Assembly (NCBI GenBank): GCA_020318295.1
Contig: GCA_020318295.1_4859.2
Length of the DNA: 25,872 nucleotides
Reading direction: 5' to 3' (one strand)
DNA from: a phage
Shown: piece after piece, positions 6,772 to 17,833 of the stretch
Numbering within the stretch: the stretch's first letter is position 1
How the letters are laid out: each line of letters starts with the position of its first letter
Notes under the pieces: model-generated
What the model was told of the DNA's origin: nothing
Databases searched by the model: none
Seen by the model: the letters and a program-made list of their open reading frames with translations, nothing else
Position numbers and translations under genes: made by a program

Positions 6772-7104
6772 TCACTTATGTTTCTGTTTTTCTTCACGCA
6801 TCAACTTAGCGTTCAGGTCGACCATGTAACCCGGTTTTTCCATCACCTGCACTTCTTCCCAGTTGCTTCCCACCGCCATTTTGAGGGTTCCTTGACGTAC
6901 CGCGATTTCTTTTGCAGTGTCACGGCAGACCTCTAACGCTTCGTCCAAATCGTTAAAGGTTGTCTTCTGTGGTCCGTTAAAGGTTTTAGCGCATTCCAGG
7001 AATACACGTTCGTAAACATCCTGGTCGAGTAAGAGTGGTTTGTCCGCAGCGTGGACAACCATAGGCGCAACGAGTGCGCCTAACAGAACTAAAACTTTCT
7101 TCAT
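6772..7104 (-). CDS. Small secreted or periplasmic protein (110 aa) with N-terminal signal peptide
   Basis: MKKVLVLLGALVAPMVVHA-ADKP is a typical signal peptide with an AxA cleavage site; start overlaps the upstream stop as TAATG. Confidence 0.6.
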   Translation of the reverse strand: MKKVLVLLGALVAPMVVHAADKPLLLDQDVYERVFLECAKTFNGPQKTTFNDLDEALEVCRDTAKEIAVRQGTLKMAVGSNWEEVQVMEKPGYMVDLNAKLMREEKQKHK

Positions 7105-7586
7105 TATTTCACCATGTGTATAAGTTGATAACGTGGGGTTTCTTCTACCACAACATCAAAGGATGGAATACATGATATCTTTCCATTCAGGTCGAGATGT
7201 ATACGTGGTGAAATCATAATGGTTCCCGCACGCATCAGTTCAACCGCCTGGGCTTTGAGTGGGCCATGCGGAGTAAAATCTCCGCGAAGTTGAAAATGTC
7301 CTTCAACGATTCCGTAGCAAATATTTGACACGTACCCACAAACGCGATCAAGGTCGATGTCACGCACACGACGGTTGGCGTCTTCTAATTCCTTAAAAGA
7401 CCGGCACGGCTTAATAACCGGCGCATCGTATTCACAAAAGACGTGACCGCGGCGTAACGCCAGTGAGACAGCTTCATCCGGATGGTGCGGATCTTTGAAG
7501 TCCTCACAGGGTATTGAGAAAATTAAACCGCTGGCCGTCGCAACTGTTTGAGCAGGTATTTCCTTAACCTCAGTTTGTAGTTTCAT
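7104..7586 (-). CDS. Hypothetical protein (160 aa)
   Basis: ORF directly downstream of the HslU-like gene after an 80-nt gap; no recognisable motif and no HslV-like N-terminal Thr signature. Confidence 0.55.
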   Translation of the reverse strand: MKLQTEVKEIPAQTVATASGLIFSIPCEDFKDPHHPDEAVSLALRRGHVFCEYDAPVIKPCRSFKELEDANRRVRDIDLDRVCGYVSNICYGIVEGHFQLRGDFTPHGPLKAQAVELMRAGTIMISPRIHLDLNGKISCIPSFDVVVEETPRYQLIHMVK

Positions 7587-7666: not shown

Positions 7667-9427
7667 TTACGCGTTCTCTGTCCAAGCGTGACCACGCAGC
7701 GTTTCACCGCGTATGTCGTATTGCTTATATTTCGAAGAGTCGTAAGACGCAGGTAAGAAGATCTGATGAACAATATCCGCCAGTCGACGAGCGCCAAGGT
7801 TCTCTACAGCATTGGCTTCCATTGTTTTCTCAGCGATGAACGTATAGGTGTCCATGTCGTACTGCGTTTCCACCCCTTCGGTTTTCAACAACTTAATCAT
7901 GCCGTGGAACTCACTGTTATCCAACTTACAGATAGCAATCAGTGCCTCGGTATCCAGCGAAGACATTTTCGCTCTTAACGGAAAACGTCCCTGGAGTTCT
8001 GCCATGAGTTTAGAAACAGGCGCTTGAGCAAACGACCCAGCAGCGACAAAAAGCACATTGGTTGTGTCAACGCCATGATAAATACCCCCTTCAACCATTT
8101 TCAACAAGCTACGCTGCACACCACTACGGGATACACGTGCAGTGTGTTGCGTGTCAACCTCGATAAGTTTGTCAAACTCATCCAAGAACACCACCGCAAA
8201 GTTCTCAACGAAATCATGTCCATTACAGTTGGGTAGTTTCTTGAGGTCTTTGCGGCTGACTGTTTCTTTTTCTGGCACAACTGTTTCAGGTATCTCGTAA
8301 TGCCAAAGCCGTTCATCGGCGTATTTGGTAAATTCTGGAGAACCTTCGAACACGTCATCCCACCAACGACACCACTTCTCAGGATCTTCCAAACGAGACA
8401 ACATGCGAATAGTAAACGCTGCAGCGTCGATCGGGAGCCAATTAATGCCCGCCGGCTCGACGTCCTCGTCGTCGCCGTTAAACGTGTCGAACAAATCGTA
8501 GAAATCTGAGCCATCGGCACACGAGAGTGGCAGGTTATTTGACATCAGCGCTTGACCGGCATCAACGTATAAGTCAATCTGTTCGCCTAAAGCCATCAGC
8601 GACATAAACTCACCCATATACCCAATCGTGCCCGGTATATCACCATCCATTAACTTATCGACTTGACTTTCAAGTTCTTCACTATTCAACAGTTCAGAAA
8701 TTGACGAGACACCGAGCAGACTCCTTGCGATTTCCGAAATCTTATCTATCCATTCCTGCACAGTACGGCCACCGAGCGTAACAGAATAGATATCGAAGTC
8801 TTCGTAGGTTAAATTGTGTTGACGGCAATAGCCAACCATAAACGCGCGAAGACAATAGATGTCTTGGTATTCTTCGTACAACTCCTTCGGATCGAGTATA
8901 CCCTGACGCCGTAATAGTTCGGTGTGGTCACGTTTAGCCTGATACCGCAGCTGGCGCTCAGCTGCGCGCTCGTCTAGTTCGCGCTCAACTTCCTTACGGG
9001 ATTCACGCTCCCACTCTTCACGAGTAAGACGATTACCGTCTACTTCCGTCTCGACACGTCGTTTGGTACGCAGTTCGATATACCAGTCGGGCAATTCGAC
9101 AGAACGCGCTAAGTCGGCTAAGTCCTTGCCGATTGATGTAACTTCCCGGCCTACGTAGCCTGATTCTGTAAACGCGGTCATGTCGAGTTCCAGCACAGGT
9201 AAACCGAATTTAGTTTTCAGTACCCGCATCAACGCCGTTTTACCCGTGCCTGTTGGACCTTCTATTAAAAGGTTCTGTTTGTGGACCGACATACGGTCCA
9301 CTACGTTAAGTTTATTGGCACGGTATCGATTACGTAGCGCAATCGCCAGCATTTTCTTTGCCTGCGTTTGTCCATATACGTAACGATCGAATAGCGCCAC
9401 TATCTCAACCGGCGTGAGGTTTTCCAT
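7667..9427 (-). CDS. HslU-like AAA+ ATPase (ClpY-type unfoldase) with a greatly expanded insertion domain (586 aa)
   Basis: N-terminus TPVEIVALFDRYVYGQTQAKKMLAIALRNRYR and Walker A GPTGTGKT, TESGYVGREV, Walker B VVFLDEFDK, SRSGVQRSLLKMVEGG and sensor-2 ENLGARRL all follow the HslU pattern from memory. About 340 aa separate Walker A and B. Confidence 0.85.
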   Translation of the reverse strand: MENLTPVEIVALFDRYVYGQTQAKKMLAIALRNRYRANKLNVVDRMSVHKQNLLIEGPTGTGKTALMRVLKTKFGLPVLELDMTAFTESGYVGREVTSIGKDLADLARSVELPDWYIELRTKRRVETEVDGNRLTREEWERESRKEVERELDERAAERQLRYQAKRDHTELLRRQGILDPKELYEEYQDIYCLRAFMVGYCRQHNLTYEDFDIYSVTLGGRTVQEWIDKISEIARSLLGVSSISELLNSEELESQVDKLMDGDIPGTIGYMGEFMSLMALGEQIDLYVDAGQALMSNNLPLSCADGSDFYDLFDTFNGDDEDVEPAGINWLPIDAAAFTIRMLSRLEDPEKWCRWWDDVFEGSPEFTKYADERLWHYEIPETVVPEKETVSRKDLKKLPNCNGHDFVENFAVVFLDEFDKLIEVDTQHTARVSRSGVQRSLLKMVEGGIYHGVDTTNVLFVAAGSFAQAPVSKLMAELQGRFPLRAKMSSLDTEALIAICKLDNSEFHGMIKLLKTEGVETQYDMDTYTFIAEKTMEANAVENLGARRLADIVHQIFLPASYDSSKYKQYDIRGETLRGHAWTENA

Positions 9428-9636: not shown

Positions 9637-10334
9637 CAGTAATCCCCCGTTGCTCCTATCGCAGTCGCTACTTTACCGACAACCTCGTCAACCGGAAGCA
9701 CCACCTCGTCTTTCTTGCTCACAATCTCTGGCACTTCTTTGACATGTTCAACGGTCACGTCAAATTTCCGAGTATAACCAACAAGTAACTTTGCCATATC
9801 TGCACGACTAACGAACTGTCGTTCTTCTGACAGATGCAACGACGTATCAAGTAGTCCGGAATGCATGAAGTTTTCAATGAGTTGGTCTTCTTCTGCTTTG
9901 AAGTCGTACCGCTCGTTCGGTGCAGCCACAAATGCATAACCGAAATACTTCCCCTCTTCCTGTTCAGGGCGTAACGATTTAACTAACTCCTCAGCGTGTT
10001 CACAGAAGTCCGCCAAAGTATAATCGTCAAGTGTGGCAACTGCGGTTTCTGTTACAATTTCACCGCTGTCGAGTTCGGTGAGGTGCATCACCCACAGGTG
10101 CCATGGGCGCGGTTGGTCGAACAATCCGCCGACTAACATGTCTGTGGCGATAGCACGAATACGTGGACTTGCTGTAAAGTGAAAACCGCGGCCCGCGTAC
10201 GGGCCGAGACGGCGAATGGAGCTGCCAATAAAGGTGATGCGGTTCAGCGCGTTTTCAGCGATGGTGTGCGCTGTACGCTCTGTAGCAGCTTTTGGGTTAT
10301 ACTTTTTGTTACGGGGTTTCTTTTGCTTAGCCAT
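9636..10334 (-). CDS. Hypothetical protein (232 aa)
   Basis: Start overlaps the upstream stop as TAATG; basic N-terminus MAKQKKPRNKKYNPK. Confidence 0.6.
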   Translation of the reverse strand: MAKQKKPRNKKYNPKAATERTAHTIAENALNRITFIGSSIRRLGPYAGRGFHFTASPRIRAIATDMLVGGLFDQPRPWHLWVMHLTELDSGEIVTETAVATLDDYTLADFCEHAEELVKSLRPEQEEGKYFGYAFVAAPNERYDFKAEEDQLIENFMHSGLLDTSLHLSEERQFVSRADMAKLLVGYTRKFDVTVEHVKEVPEIVSKKDEVVLPVDEVVGKVATAIGATGDY

Positions 10335-10804
10335 TACTTAAAAACCTTTTTACAGACAGTGTGGAATACTTTACGAATTTCGCGAAGAGTTTGTTCGGTA
10401 TGCAGATGCCGATACGTTATTTTCCATGCGTTATACGTGTTCTTCAGGGTGATCTCGCTGAGGTCGTAGACGAAATCCTCATCAGGGTACAAGAGTCTCG
10501 CCATGCACAAATCCCACAGTGGCGGAATATCCGCTTTCATTAACTCAGCGACAAGCTCATGTGCTTTGTGTTCAAAGCCGATGCCAAGAACGAACACCAC
10601 ATGAAATTCCCCCGGTGTGTTCTTTTTAGAATATGGTCCGTGTCCATGACACGACCACATTGTCGTGGCACCAGGATAACTACAAATGACCTCACACGCA
10701 TCCCGTACGCCTTTCTCAACCCAACCGTTTACGAGCGCCTTAGACGTTCGTAGTTTAAACCGACCCAGAACATCCAGGTCCACGCCACCGTATAAAACTG
10801 GCAT
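10334..10804 (-). CDS. Hypothetical protein (156 aa)
   Basis: ATG at 10804 with AAGGAG 8 nt upstream; contains an SCHGHG motif of unknown meaning. Confidence 0.6.
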   Translation of the reverse strand: MPVLYGGVDLDVLGRFKLRTSKALVNGWVEKGVRDACEVICSYPGATTMWSCHGHGPYSKKNTPGEFHVVFVLGIGFEHKAHELVAELMKADIPPLWDLCMARLLYPDEDFVYDLSEITLKNTYNAWKITYRHLHTEQTLREIRKVFHTVCKKVFK

Positions 10805-10832: not shown

Positions 10833-11285
10833 TTAATGGTTATGTTCTGTAAAAATTGCGAGTGCGAGCCAGTGCTCCATCACTCTTTCCATCACATCCG
10901 GGTCAGGTCGATAGTTGAGTCTAAACGTCCAGCTTGGATAACAGAGATTCGCGTTGCCTTCTTGACGCAGCCAAGTAAAGTTTAACTGAAAACGTTTCCC
11001 GTATTCGTGCGGCTGCCATCCTTCTAATAAATGATTAATGTCTTTAAGACCCGCCTCGGTTGCCACAAATGTTAAGCTGTGGTGTCTACGTGTACGAAGC
11101 TTGTCTCCGTCTTTGCGAACTTCTCCCGTGAATGCCCAAACGGTTGCGATATTCGGCCATTCGCTAAATGCCCTAATGATTGCACGCGTTTTAACATCGA
11201 CTGGTTTTTCAGCATCCAGCGCCCGGATTGTGCGCTGCTTGTACGCGGCCAATTCCGCATCATTGACGACTGAACATTGAAACAT
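10833..11285 (-). CDS. Hypothetical protein (150 aa)
   Basis: ATG at 11285; first gene after the terminator at 11305-11345. Confidence 0.55.
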   Translation of the reverse strand: MFQCSVVNDAELAAYKQRTIRALDAEKPVDVKTRAIIRAFSEWPNIATVWAFTGEVRKDGDKLRTRRHHSLTFVATEAGLKDINHLLEGWQPHEYGKRFQLNFTWLRQEGNANLCYPSWTFRLNYRPDPDVMERVMEHWLALAIFTEHNH

Positions 11286-11304: not shown

Positions 11305-11345
11305 TAAAAATAAAAAGAACCCTACCTAACCGAAGTTAGGTAGGG
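11305..11345 (-). terminator. Intrinsic terminator
   Basis: 10-bp stem ccctacctaa/ttaggtaggg with a CTTCGG loop on the minus strand, followed by TTCTTTTTATTTTT. Confidence 0.7.
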
Positions 11346-11351
11346 GACTAT

Positions 11352-11657
11352 TTAAGCGACAACGCGTTTGCGTTTATCGACGACTTTCTTGGTTGCTTTC
11401 GCTACCTTCTTAGTGGCAGGGATGGTATCAACCGGGGTGTCGGCTACCAAGGCACGTTCTACGCCGTCTGCGCGGAGAACACGCAGATTCTTCGCCTGTG
11501 GTAAACCTTTGAAAGTGATGGTCAAACCCGCGCGGAGACCTTGATACAGAAACCCTTGCAGGTTCAGTTTCTTGGCGGTTGCAGTGCTCTCACAACCTTT
11601 CTCCACGTACAGCAGAGTCGTACCTGCACGTTTGACAATTGTGTATTGTTTAGCCAT
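11352..11657 (-). CDS. Small basic protein with Lys-rich C-terminal tail (101 aa); possible DNA-binding protein
   Basis: Monocistronic between promoter motif P2 and its own terminator; C-terminus KKVAKATKKVVDKRKRVVA. Product is an inference. Confidence 0.6.
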   Translation of the reverse strand: MAKQYTIVKRAGTTLLYVEKGCESTATAKKLNLQGFLYQGLRAGLTITFKGLPQAKNLRVLRADGVERALVADTPVDTIPATKKVAKATKKVVDKRKRVVA

Positions 11658-11682
11658 CTACTTTTTCCTTTCTTTACAGTTA

Positions 11683-11710
11683 GGTTCAGTAAAATAACAT
11701 CTATCTGAAA
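11683..11710 (-). promoter_or_regulatory. Conserved promoter-like motif P2 (minus strand TTTCAGATAGATGTTATTTTACTGAACC)
   Basis: Core identical to P1; 53 nt upstream of the ATG at 11657. Confidence 0.45.
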
Positions 11711-12329: not shown

Positions 12330-12383
12330 TCTCTTAATTCCTCTTTACGTGGGTTGTTTCACATAAGTTAGTGGACTGATGTA

Positions 12384-12425
12384 AATAAAAAGGGACCTCC
12401 TCACCCGTGGGCAAGGAGGCGGGCC
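12384..12425 (-). terminator. Intrinsic terminator
   Basis: GC-rich stem cctcct/aggagg with extensions, followed by CCCTTTTTATTT on the minus strand; abuts the stop at 12426. Confidence 0.55.
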
Positions 12426-15672: not shown

Positions 15673-16674
15673 TTAACATCCTCTCATGCCAGATTGAAAC
15701 ATATCACTGATAGTCAGCCTGGTTGTAGTCTCCACCGGAATGCTAGGTTCTTCTTTCAGCACTCGATCGGCGCGGTTCCCATTCACCCGTTTCCAGCTAA
15801 TAAGTTCAGGATCGCGTTTCAACGTTAGTGTACGCAGTACCTGCTTGCAACGTAAGATGTTGCCGTACAGGTGATTTGCTGGATTATTATCAGCAGCTGT
15901 TTCAATATAGACTTGGTCGGAATGACGTTGTGCGAAATCGAATAGCGCGCCCATTAGCCGGCGGCCAATGCCACGTTTACGGTGTGTGGGTGCAACGGTT
16001 AAACCAGAAAGTTCAACGACGCCTGGTGTAACCAAGCGCATCTGGGCAATACCGACGATATCATGGCCGTCTCGCCAAATTGCAGTCTCCACATTAGCGT
16101 GCTGAATTCTTGCTATTACTGTTTCTGCTAACGGACCAATGTGTGTATAGTAGCCACGCATATCGTATTCTAGCTCTTCGCAAATTGCACCGCTAATCAA
16201 ATTCAGGATAACGTCTTTATCTTCCTTGGTAAGTTCTGCGTATGCATCACCAGAAATAATCTTGATTTCTGATGCGGTGATTACTTTGTCAAACAGTTTA
16301 GAATGACATGCCCAAACGATATCTGAAAGAACAAACCCTTTTTCGACCAGTTTTTGTTCAACATCGTCAGTAGGTGCTGGGCACGACATATATTCGAATC
16401 CGGTATGGTCGAGCACAAGGGCCAAACCAACTTTATCGAATGCCCCAGGTACAAACTCCTCAAAATAGTGACAGGTTAGTGTAGGGTCACCGTGTCGATA
16501 GGTGGCCACTAAATAACCCTCCCAGGTTTCTTTATTCTTCACCACGTAAACAGAATAAGTCTCGTCCTTTAGAAACTCTTTTAGGCGGCGTGCTCGTACA
16601 GTATCGCTGCCGACGTTATTTCGGAACTCGGCAGTGCGGATGCTGGTGCGAAACAATTTAGCCACAGTTTTCAT
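15673..16674 (-). CDS. Two-domain protein with C-terminal GNAT acetyltransferase domain (334 aa)
   Basis: Canonical acetyl-CoA motif LTVAPTHRKRGIGRRLMGALFDFAQ in the C-terminal half. The track ORF starts with TTG at 16797 and overlaps the upstream gene and terminator; ATG at 16674 (MKTVAKLF...) was chosen. Confidence 0.7.
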   Translation of the reverse strand: MKTVAKLFRTSIRTAEFRNNVGSDTVRARRLKEFLKDETYSVYVVKNKETWEGYLVATYRHGDPTLTCHYFEEFVPGAFDKVGLALVLDHTGFEYMSCPAPTDDVEQKLVEKGFVLSDIVWACHSKLFDKVITASEIKIISGDAYAELTKEDKDVILNLISGAICEELEYDMRGYYTHIGPLAETVIARIQHANVETAIWRDGHDIVGIAQMRLVTPGVVELSGLTVAPTHRKRGIGRRLMGALFDFAQRHSDQVYIETAADNNPANHLYGNILRCKQVLRTLTLKRDPELISWKRVNGNRADRVLKEEPSIPVETTTRLTISDMFQSGMRGC

Positions 16675-17446: not shown

Positions 17447-17833
17447 TTAATCCCAGAAAGCTGCTTCTGGAAAGTCGTGTTCAAATGCCCGACGGTCATT
17501 CTCTACACGGTTTAAATGTGTCGGTAAAGACACGCAGTTATTACAGATACAAAGTTCTTTATCCCCTTGACTGGGGTCAAAGTCGTACCATTTCCATTCA
17601 ACGGTATCTCGTTTCGGGAAGGTACCTTTGCAGTCGTCGCAGACCACTTCTTCAGCTGCAATTTCAGCCTGCAGTTTTTCCCAGCAGTTCTCGCACATGT
17701 AGTACGTTTCGCGGCCCCATGGGTCGCACTCTGCCGTATAGCGCGGGGCTATAGAGCCCACTTTAAGATGTTTACATCGATCATCCTCTTCCGTCATCAC
17801 GCGACGGGTGATACCATTTACAAACCAATTCAT
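17447..17833 (-). CDS. Cys-rich putative zinc-binding protein (128 aa)
   Basis: Several CxxC pairs (CENC, CDDC, CICNNC); ATG at 17833 with GGGAG upstream. Confidence 0.6.
   Translation of the reverse strand: MNWFVNGITRRVMTEEDDRCKHLKVGSIAPRYTAECDPWGRETYYMCENCWEKLQAEIAAEEVVCDDCKGTFPKRDTVEWKWYDFDPSQGDKELCICNNCVSLPTHLNRVENDRRAFEHDFPEAAFWD

What the first reader, a model, noticed from the sequence alone, without database searches (positions are those of the whole stretch)
11352..11657. Monocistronic small basic protein with a histone-like Lys-rich tail
The 101-aa protein ends in KKVAKATKKVVDKRKRVVA and has its own promoter motif (P2, 53 nt upstream) and a strong terminator immediately downstream. 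That arrangement suits a highly expressed nucleic-acid-binding protein, such as a nucleoid-associated or DNA-packaging accessory protein or a mimic of host nucleoid proteins.
Basis: inference. Interest (0 to 1): 0.4.

Follow-up and report, generated by a model that had tools for sequence, protein, structure and literature searches.

The report
Early-gene cassette for small basic barrel protein
This is a real, conserved, self-contained early gene of a giant Salmonella phage (the counterpart of SPN3US gp112) that encodes a small, very basic barrel-shaped protein with a floppy lysine-rich tail; it probably binds nucleic acid, but it is not a recognisable histone-like or DNA-packaging protein and its function has not been tested.

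Summary
The window is an SPN3US-like giant Salmonella phage, and the ORF is the ortholog of SPN3US gp112, annotated "hypothetical". The "P2" motif 53 nt upstream matches the early-promoter consensus of phiKZ-like phages, which is read by the RNA polymerase carried in the virion. SPN3US has about 24 copies, two of them upstream of the nuclear-shell gene. The downstream hairpin is strong (-22 kcal/mol). The promoter-gene-terminator cassette recurs in four lineages whose proteins are only 26-48% identical. AlphaFold gives a confident OB-like small beta-barrel for residues 1-~75 and a disordered polycationic tail. Every family member is very basic (pI 9.8-10.4), but the Lys-rich tail is absent in CR5-like phages. 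In Machina-like phages the barrel is duplicated around a K/A/P-rich linker. No sequence search links the family to HU, H-NS, H1, cold-shock or any other known family. [quoted passage not shown] A packaging role or an essential replication role is therefore unlikely. Best reading: an early, well-expressed, accessory nucleic-acid binder whose target is unresolved. Interest is modest.

The parts
11684..11710 (-). Early-type (virion RNA polymerase) promoter motif TTTCAGATAGATGTTATTTTACTGAAC. By analogy with related phages the transcript should start about 10 nt downstream of the AT-rich core, near 11686.
   Evidence: Searches show the motif and its copies in the window. One search finds about 24 copies in SPN3US; this one scores 27.2 bits against a best of 28.7. 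It matches 23 of 26 positions of the published consensus TTTCARRYAKATATTATYWAAGTGWA (N1M2/OBP) and resembles phiKZ TATATTAC (PMC7058600). In related phages this motif class has been shown to be the early promoter (PMC7598289; PMC11512511). The transcription start site is inferred, not mapped.
11666..11670 (-). Shine-Dalgarno-like AAGGA, 8 nt before the ATG
   Evidence: Read directly from the sequence. Orthologs have GGAG or AAGGAG at similar spacing.
11352..11657 (-). CDS of 101 aa plus stop codon; ortholog of SPN3US gp112 (SPN3US_0112 / AEP83945 / YP_009153406); PHROG 12339, function unknown
   Evidence: Nine synonymous against five non-synonymous codon changes relative to SPN3US.
11427..11657 (-). 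Residues 1-77: conserved, basic, all-beta domain predicted as an OB-like small barrel. Strands at 4-11, 14-19, 29-32, 46-49, 58-61 and 67-69. Invariant R10, G35, F49; nearly invariant L33, G51, N57, L70; R42-K-G in most members.
11355..11417 (-). Residues 81-101: disordered polycationic tail ATKKVAKATKKVVDKRKRVVA
   Evidence: pLDDT below 50 for residues 82-101. Nine K/R and one D/E. In Seoulvirus/Erskinevirus-type orthologs the composition is kept but the sequence is not. CR5-like orthologs have a short, weakly basic tail instead.
11306..11345 (-). Intrinsic terminator: 11-bp stem with UUCG tetraloop (11345..11320) followed by a U-tract (11319..11306)
   Evidence: -22.1 kcal/mol, z -5.25. Identical in SPN3US. 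Analogous hairpins follow the orthologs in a CR5-like phage, in Machina and in an uncultured relative.

Best explanation
The locus is a self-contained early-gene cassette of an SPN3US-like, nucleus-forming giant phage.

Proposed expression (steps a and b are inferred from motifs and from experiments on related phages).
(a) Immediately after infection, the RNA polymerase carried in the virion starts at the early-promoter motif.
(b) The short transcript, about 370 nt, stops at the UUCG hairpin terminator.

Protein.
(c) The transcript is translated into an 11-kDa protein that is not part of the virion (non-virion status is shown in the literature). It consists of an OB-like small beta-barrel of about 75 residues, with conserved Arg, Lys and aromatic positions, followed by a disordered polycationic tail of about 20 residues (predicted with good confidence).

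Function.
(d) The most likely activity is non-sequence-specific binding of nucleic acid. The barrel would supply a binding face and the tail, or the K/A/P-rich linker in the duplicated forms, would supply electrostatic affinity (inferred).
(e) In these phages the phage DNA is enclosed, and a protein reaches it only if it is imported. The default targets are therefore cytoplasmic: RNA and ribosomes, or the host nucleoid. I lean slightly to RNA or single-stranded nucleic acid, because the nearest folds are cold-shock-type and OB RNA-binding domains and because the domain can be duplicated in tandem.
(f) The protein is an accessory factor. It is not required for replication, late gene expression, head assembly or DNA packaging (shown by the phenotype of the published double amber mutant).

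Rough probabilities: nucleic-acid binder of any kind 0.55. Within that, RNA or ribosome about 0.3 and DNA about 0.25.
For: Identity and reality of the gene.

Early-promoter class:
- Motif copies in the window.
- About 24 copies in SPN3US, upstream of non-virion genes. These include two copies before gp22, the ChmA nuclear-shell gene (accession, numbering), and one before the RNA-polymerase subunit gene gp34.
- Match to published consensus sequences (PMC7058600).
- This motif class was confirmed as the early promoter wherever transcripts were profiled (PMC7598289; PMC11512511).

Terminator.

Cassette conserved in four lineages whose proteins are 26-48% identical; synteny.

Expression proxy: codon adaptation ranks 34th (E. 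coli weights) or 26th (phage late-gene reference) of 260 genes. The index puts the major capsid protein first and ChmA fourth or fifth.

Charge: all family members have pI 9.8-10.4 and net charge +10 to +20. The protein is a proteome outlier.

Fold; the earlier low-confidence model gave the same kind of matches.

Not in the virion, and DNA-filled heads formed with the Q34 amber mutation: PMC5105663.
Against: - No binding or expression data could be read.
- The Lys-rich tail is missing in CR5-like orthologs, so it cannot be essential to the family's core function.
- The promoter lacks the A-rich stretch upstream that most other copies have.
- Codon adaptation is good but not among the very highest.
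- The gene immediately downstream has no promoter motif of its own, so the terminator may be leaky.
Confidence: 0.55

Rival explanations
1. Histone-like or nucleoid-associated DNA protein. The protein would be imported into the phage nucleus, or would bind the host nucleoid, and would coat or compact double-stranded DNA through its H1-like K/A/P-rich tail. Alternatively it would assist genome packaging.
For: - The tails of Seoulvirus/Erskinevirus-type orthologs and the linker of the Machina-type proteins are lysine/alanine(/proline)-rich (e.g. KKPAAKTAKAP in phiEaH2, KKPAKAAKESKKAPKA in the Machina type); from memory, this resembles linker-histone and bacterial H1-like tails.
- The protein is strongly basic.
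- It has an early promoter and good codon adaptation.
Against: - No match to HU/IHF, H-NS, linker-histone or Hc1 models, and the fold is a beta-barrel.
- The tail is absent in CR5-like orthologs.
- The protein is not in the virion, and heads fill with DNA without it (PMC5105663).
- Phage DNA in these phages is enclosed, and nothing suggests this protein is imported.
- A recent review of nucleus-forming phages does not contain the words 'histone', 'nucleoid' or 'chromatin'.
Confidence: 0.2
2. Protein-binding regulator or anti-defence factor. The small barrel would act like the enterobacterial connector proteins PmrD and IraM, or like other small phage inhibitors. It would bind and block or redirect a host protein, such as a response regulator, a protease adaptor or a defence component, early in infection. 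The basic tail would be incidental or would act as a degradation signal.
For: - The gene is early, dispensable for the core cycle and confined to one clade of enterobacterial phages. This pattern is typical of host-interaction genes.
- All family members end in a basic cluster followed by 1-3 apolar residues (KRKRVVA, SRKI, LRKHF, ERRTY). From memory this resembles the MuA-type ClpX recognition motif.
Against: - A net charge of +10 to +20, conserved in every member including both copies of the duplicated forms, is more typical of polyanion binders.
- No PADLOC search was run for this protein; the neighbouring genes have no Pfam match and fall only in PHROG families of unknown function, so the context does not suggest a defence link.
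Confidence: 0.15
3. Replicative single-stranded-DNA-binding protein of the phage: an OB-fold SSB comparable to filamentous-phage gene V protein or to the T4 gp32 core.
Against: - The Q34 amber truncation still allowed production of DNA-filled heads on a non-suppressing host (PMC5105663).
- The family is absent from most nucleus-forming phages, whereas a replicative SSB should be a core gene.
- The domain is smaller than typical SSB OB domains.
Confidence: 0.05

Closest known systems
SPN3US gp112 (SPN3US_0112; PHROG 12339), hypothetical non-virion protein
   Same: 97% identical protein at the same genome position, with identical promoter and terminator. This is the same gene in a sister phage.
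   Different: Nothing of substance. The literature records only its mass (10.9 kDa), its absence from virions, and an amber allele (Q34) carried in a double mutant, with essentiality 'not determined' (PMC5105663).
OB-fold / cold-shock-type small beta-barrel nucleic-acid-binding domains (CspA/Unr cold-shock domains, S1, IF1, RPA-type)
Linker-histone-like basic tails (eukaryotic H1 C-terminal domain; bacterial Hc1, HupB and AlgP-type K/A/P repeats)
   Same: Disordered K/A/V/T(/P)-rich C-terminal segment with net charge about +8 over 21 residues. Orthologs carry KKPAAK- and AKAP-type strings.
   Different: Only about 20 residues and not repetitive. The globular part is a beta-barrel, not a winged helix or an HU fold. 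The tail is not conserved across the family. The resemblance is compositional and recalled from memory, not tested by any model.
PhiKZ014, the abundant early ribosome-binding protein of phage phiKZ
   Same: Concept only: a non-virion protein made very early by a related giant phage that binds a host nucleic-acid machine through charge interactions (PMC10914614).
   Different: [quoted passage not shown] Its homologs are in Pseudomonas phages. No sequence similarity was found.
PmrD / IraM enterobacterial connector proteins
   Different: No sequence relationship. Those proteins bind response regulators, not nucleic acid. The extreme conserved positive charge here is not explained by that role.

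Membership tests
SPN3US gp112 family (PHROG 12339) | Full-length sequence match to the family profile | tested here: met
   PHROG 12339, E = 4.8e-48 over residues 1-101. 97% identity to the cluster that represents SPN3US-like phages.
SPN3US gp112 family (PHROG 12339) | Conserved genome position between the gp110/gp111 and gp113/gp114 homologs | tested here: met
Chimallivirus early (virion RNA polymerase) promoter class | Match to the conserved AT-rich motif TTTCARRYAKATATTATYWAAGTG / TATATTAC, recurring upstream of non-virion genes | tested here: met
   23 of 26 positions match the N1M2 consensus. About 24 genomic copies lie mostly in intergenic regions upstream of non-virion genes, including ChmA and an RNA-polymerase subunit.
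Chimallivirus early (virion RNA polymerase) promoter class | Transcript 5' end about 10 nt downstream of the motif, appearing early and independent of host RNA polymerase | not testable with these tools
   Needs RNA-seq, cappable-seq or primer extension on infected cells.
Bacterial histone-like / nucleoid-associated proteins (HU/IHF, H-NS, Fis, Hc1) and linker histone H1 | Sequence-profile match to the family domain | tested here: not met
   No Pfam family at E <= 10 for the protein. No relevant family for any of 25 relatives. No NCBIfam hit. No PDB sequence hit.
Bacterial histone-like / nucleoid-associated proteins (HU/IHF, H-NS, Fis, Hc1) and linker histone H1 | Characteristic fold (HU alpha/beta arms, H-NS coiled coil plus DNA-binding domain, H1 winged helix) | tested here: not met
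Bacterial histone-like / nucleoid-associated proteins (HU/IHF, H-NS, Fis, Hc1) and linker histone H1 | Abundant protein that binds and compacts dsDNA | not testable with these tools
   Needs gel-shift, compaction and localisation experiments.
Cold-shock domain / S1 / IF1-type OB-fold RNA-binding domains | Five-stranded OB-type barrel | tested here: inconclusive
Cold-shock domain / S1 / IF1-type OB-fold RNA-binding domains | Profile match to PF00313 (CSD), PF00575 (S1) or PF01176 (eIF-1a); RNP1/RNP2 motifs for cold-shock domains | tested here: not met
   No Pfam hits.
Virion / DNA-packaging accessory proteins | Presence in purified virions or heads; requirement for head filling | tested here: not met

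The most novel reading that the evidence does not exclude
gp112-type proteins could be a dedicated early nucleic-acid coat of one clade of nucleus-forming phages. One version is the first chromatin-like protein of a phage nucleus, imported to coat phage DNA. The other is an abundant RNA- or ribosome-binding factor that shields or favours phage messages in the cytoplasm. In both versions the activity comes from an orphan OB-like barrel that evolution has used singly with an H1-like tail or as a tandem pair joined by an H1-like linker.
Probability: 0.15. Interest if true: 0.65.

Novelty: new variant of a known kind. Interest (0 to 1): 0.3.

Why it matters
Nucleus-forming giant phages separate their DNA from the cytoplasm. 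Almost nothing is known about the proteins that organise their DNA or handle their RNA in the first minutes of infection; the recent review searched here does not contain the words 'histone', 'nucleoid' or 'chromatin'.

This gene is a compact and easily testable candidate. It sits in a conserved stand-alone early cassette, encodes a tiny and very basic protein with a confident fold prediction, and an amber allele already exists. Its target could be phage DNA, the host nucleoid, messenger RNA or ribosomes. Any of these would add a new player to host takeover in the SPN3US model system.

The promoter-terminator pair is also a ready-made compact early expression unit for engineering these phages. 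If the protein binds nothing, it is simply one more clade-restricted accessory gene.

Tried and rejected
Searches that found nothing useful:
- Pfam, NCBIfam and PDB sequence searches with the single protein and with profiles gave only chance-level hits.
- An exhaustive HMMER search of 1.84 billion representatives found six clusters, all phage relatives.
- Two further word-indexed profile searches added only members of the same clade. No link to phiKZ, Goslar or other genera emerged.
- The first AlphaFold run, with 9 close sequences, was poor (pLDDT 60). Its Foldseek search gave no significant match. The second run, with 25 diverse sequences, was good.
- A BFVD search returned only family members. 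Sub-threshold matches to small proteins of Erwinia phages Kwan, RisingSun and Ea35-70 were not followed, because their sequences could not be fetched.
- There is no paralog in the SPN3US genome or in the window.
- Neighbouring genes gave no functional clue; all fall in PHROG families of unknown function.
- Rfam and tRNA scans of the window were empty.

Ideas rejected:
- Homolog of PhiKZ014: rejected, because that protein runs at about 50 kDa and has a different architecture.
- Essential SSB or packaging factor: rejected on the published mutant phenotype and the virion proteome.

No paper mentions the protein's accession numbers.

Limitations of my own scripts: the terminator finder produces false positives inside genes and was used only for orientation. 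The two rankings agree.

Full report
**What is there.** The window is 98-99% identical over the tested 1.6 kb to SPN3US-like giant Salmonella phages (Seoulvirus). The best match is phage 1252. The ORF lies on the minus strand, from the ATG at 11657 to the TAA at 11354..11352, and encodes 101 aa. The + strand reading of the same interval is full of stops. It is the ortholog of SPN3US gp112 (SPN3US_0112, AEP83945, YP_009153406), annotated "hypothetical protein" in every record. Its only family assignment is PHROG 12339, of unknown function.

**Check of the observation.** The C-terminus reads ...ATKKVAKATKKVVDKRKRVVA. The protein has pI 10.4 and net charge +14. The last 21 residues hold 9 K/R and 1 D/E. 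In a crude gene call of the SPN3US genome the median pI is 5.85, and this tail is among the five most positively charged 21-residue windows.

Closely similar copies lie in intergenic positions at 878, 18285 and 19983 on the same strand.

The terminator is an 11-bp perfect stem with a UUCG loop and a U-tract, starting 6 nt after the stop codon. Its energy is -22.1 kcal/mol, z = -5.25 against shuffles.

Against SPN3US the coding region differs at 14 codons, 9 synonymous and 5 non-synonymous, and 3 of the 5 fall in the tail. The promoter and terminator do not differ at all. One caveat applies: nothing terminates transcription between the upstream gene and this promoter. "Monocistronic" therefore describes only transcripts that start here.

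**What the promoter is.** A position-weight scan of the whole SPN3US genome finds about 24 forward copies of the motif, with consensus AAAnnTTTCAGATAGATATTATCTnaGTGAG. Nearly all are intergenic and upstream of non-virion genes. Two copies precede gp22, and one precedes the RNA-polymerase subunit gene gp34. gp22 is the nuclear-shell protein ChmA: its accession YP_009153316 comes and the numbering.

The motif matches published predicted early promoters of related giant phages. These are N1M2 (TBYAWWWWWTTTCARRYAKATATTATYWAAGTGWA), OBP, 201phi2-1 and phiKZ (TATATTAC) (PMC7058600). A review states that such a motif can be found upstream of early operons in every giant phage that encodes its own RNA polymerases. 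It adds that the motif proved to be the early promoter, centred near -10, wherever transcripts were profiled (PMC7598289). This has since been shown again for 201phi2-1 (PMC11512511). I therefore assign the gene to the early class, transcribed by the virion RNA polymerase. This is inference by homology of the motif, not a measurement.

**Conservation of the cassette.** I found three further groups of relatives:
- 89-aa orthologs (43-48% identical) in roughly 223-kb CR5-like phages.
- Tandem two-domain proteins of 168-194 aa (26-36% identical per domain) in Erwinia Machina/Huxley-type phages and Salmonella phage pSal-SNUABM-04.
- Similar two-domain proteins in uncultured relatives.

All sit at the same genome position. 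Each gene I read is preceded by the same promoter motif and followed by a clean hairpin terminator. A regulatory arrangement that survives this much protein divergence is evidently selected.

As a rough proxy for expression I computed codon adaptation. The index ranks the major capsid protein first and ChmA fourth or fifth. It places gp112 34th of 260 with E. coli weights and 26th with a phage late-gene reference, about one standard deviation above the median. That is good, but not extreme.

**The protein.** With nine close sequences AlphaFold was unconvincing (pLDDT 60). With 25 diverse sequences, including the split tandem domains, it gave pLDDT 83-92 over residues 1-70. The model has six strands, the five models agree, and residues 82-101 fall below 50, meaning disordered.

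Invariant or nearly invariant positions are R10, L33, G35, F49, G51, N57 and L70. Most members also have an aromatic residue at 36 and R-K-G at 42-44. Every member is strongly basic, with pI 9.8-10.4 and net charge +10 to +20.

The Lys-rich tail is kept in composition, but not in sequence, in Seoulvirus/Erskinevirus-type proteins. In Machina-type proteins a similar K/A/P-rich stretch (GGKKPAKAAKESKKAPKAE) forms the linker between the two barrels. In CR5-like proteins it is replaced by a short, weakly basic end (...AAKTTAGRGCYGSSRKI). The barrel and its charge therefore define the family, and the histone-like tail is a lineage-specific addition.

No sequence method connects the family to anything known. 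The exhaustive search shows it is confined to this clade of phages. There is no paralog in the genome.

**What the literature adds.** Thomas et al. 2016 (PMC5105663) sequenced amber mutant am27, which carries gp64 Q291am and gp112 Q34am. [quoted passage not shown] On a non-suppressing host this double mutant produced tailless heads that contained packaged DNA, a phenotype the authors attribute to gp64. Truncation of gp112 after 33 residues therefore did not prevent replication, late expression, head assembly or packaging. This argues against a packaging accessory role and against an essential SSB role.

**Mechanism and rivals.** My best reading (about 0.55) is an early, well-expressed, accessory protein that binds nucleic acid without sequence specificity. 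The barrel would provide the binding face and the tail or linker the electrostatic grip. These phages enclose their DNA, and SPN3US encodes ChmA. Without import, the accessible targets are cytoplasmic RNA and ribosomes or the host nucleoid. I lean slightly to RNA or single-stranded nucleic acid, because of the fold neighbours and the tandem-domain forms.

The rivals, with my confidence in each:
- A protein-binding regulator or inhibitor resembling PmrD or IraM (0.15).
- A replicative SSB (0.05).

PhiKZ014, the early ribosome binder of phiKZ, is a conceptual parallel only. It is about five times larger and differently built.

**Novelty and verdict.** The gene itself is already catalogued as a hypothetical protein. 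The following are new here:
- assignment to the early promoter class;
- conservation of the stand-alone cassette;
- the OB-like fold prediction;
- the extension of the family to tail-less and tandem forms;
- the argument from published genetics against packaging and replication roles.

It fails every membership test for named nucleic-acid-binding families, yet it looks like a new sequence family built on a familiar plan: a small basic barrel plus a cationic tail. A specialist would find it plausible rather than surprising, so interest is modest (0.3). It is, however, an unusually tractable candidate for an early nucleic-acid-binding factor in a genetic model of nucleus-forming phages.

Noticed in passing
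window 7667..9427 (-) and 7104..7586 (-): A 586-aa AAA+ ATPase of the ClpX/HslU kind (Pfam AAA_2 1.6e-11, AAA 5.2e-11) lies next to a 160-aa protein that matches PHROG 7478 'head maturation protease'. The corresponding neighbour in an uncultured relative hits Pfam Peptidase_S80. SPN3US has only about 90 nt where the ATPase gene sits, so the ATPase is an insertion of about 1.8 kb shared with phage 1252 and the uncultured relative L013. This could be a phage-encoded ATP-dependent protease pair.
   Followed up: partly
window 878, 18285, 19983 (-), and genome-wide in SPN3US (L007-L011): The same early-promoter motif precedes the homologs of gp125, gp101 (helix-turn-helix regulator) and gp99 in the window. 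SPN3US has about 24 copies, and the core is partly palindromic, so it also scores on the opposite strand.
   Followed up: yes
SPN3US 165683-165748 and 167502-167587 (L010, about 15683-15748 and 17502-17587): Two early-promoter motifs are followed within 65-85 nt by strong hairpin-plus-U terminators with no room for an ORF. They are candidate small non-coding RNAs. A conserved small RNA has been reported in giant phages (PMC11512511). Both lie outside the window.
   Followed up: no
window 10334..10804 (-) and 10833..11285 (-): The two genes immediately downstream (homologs of gp114 and gp113) are paralogs of each other; both match PHROG 7413, of unknown function. The first has no promoter motif of its own behind the strong terminator, so it must depend on read-through or on an unrecognised promoter.
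   Followed up: no
window 12330..12395 (-): Between the terminator after the gp109 homolog (12420..12395) and the start of the gp110 homolog there is no early motif. There is a TTATGT string that resembles the phiKZ late-promoter element TATG. The two genes upstream of the finding may therefore belong to a different temporal class.
   Followed up: no
GenBank records of Salmonella phages SPFM1-SPFM20 (e.g. LR535901): The predicted 'homologs' from these records (P0010-P0015, P0054, P0055) contain the gp112 segments in scrambled order, and the DNA match breaks into up to 25 pieces. This looks like an assembly artefact in those records rather than biology.
   Followed up: partly
C-termini of all family members (window 11355..11375 (-) and orthologs): Every member ends in a basic cluster followed by 1-3 apolar residues (KRKRVVA, SRSRATV, SSRKI, LRKHF, LRTRY, ERRTY). 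From memory this resembles the MuA-type ClpX recognition signal, so the end of the tail might be a degradation signal. This was not tested.
   Followed up: no
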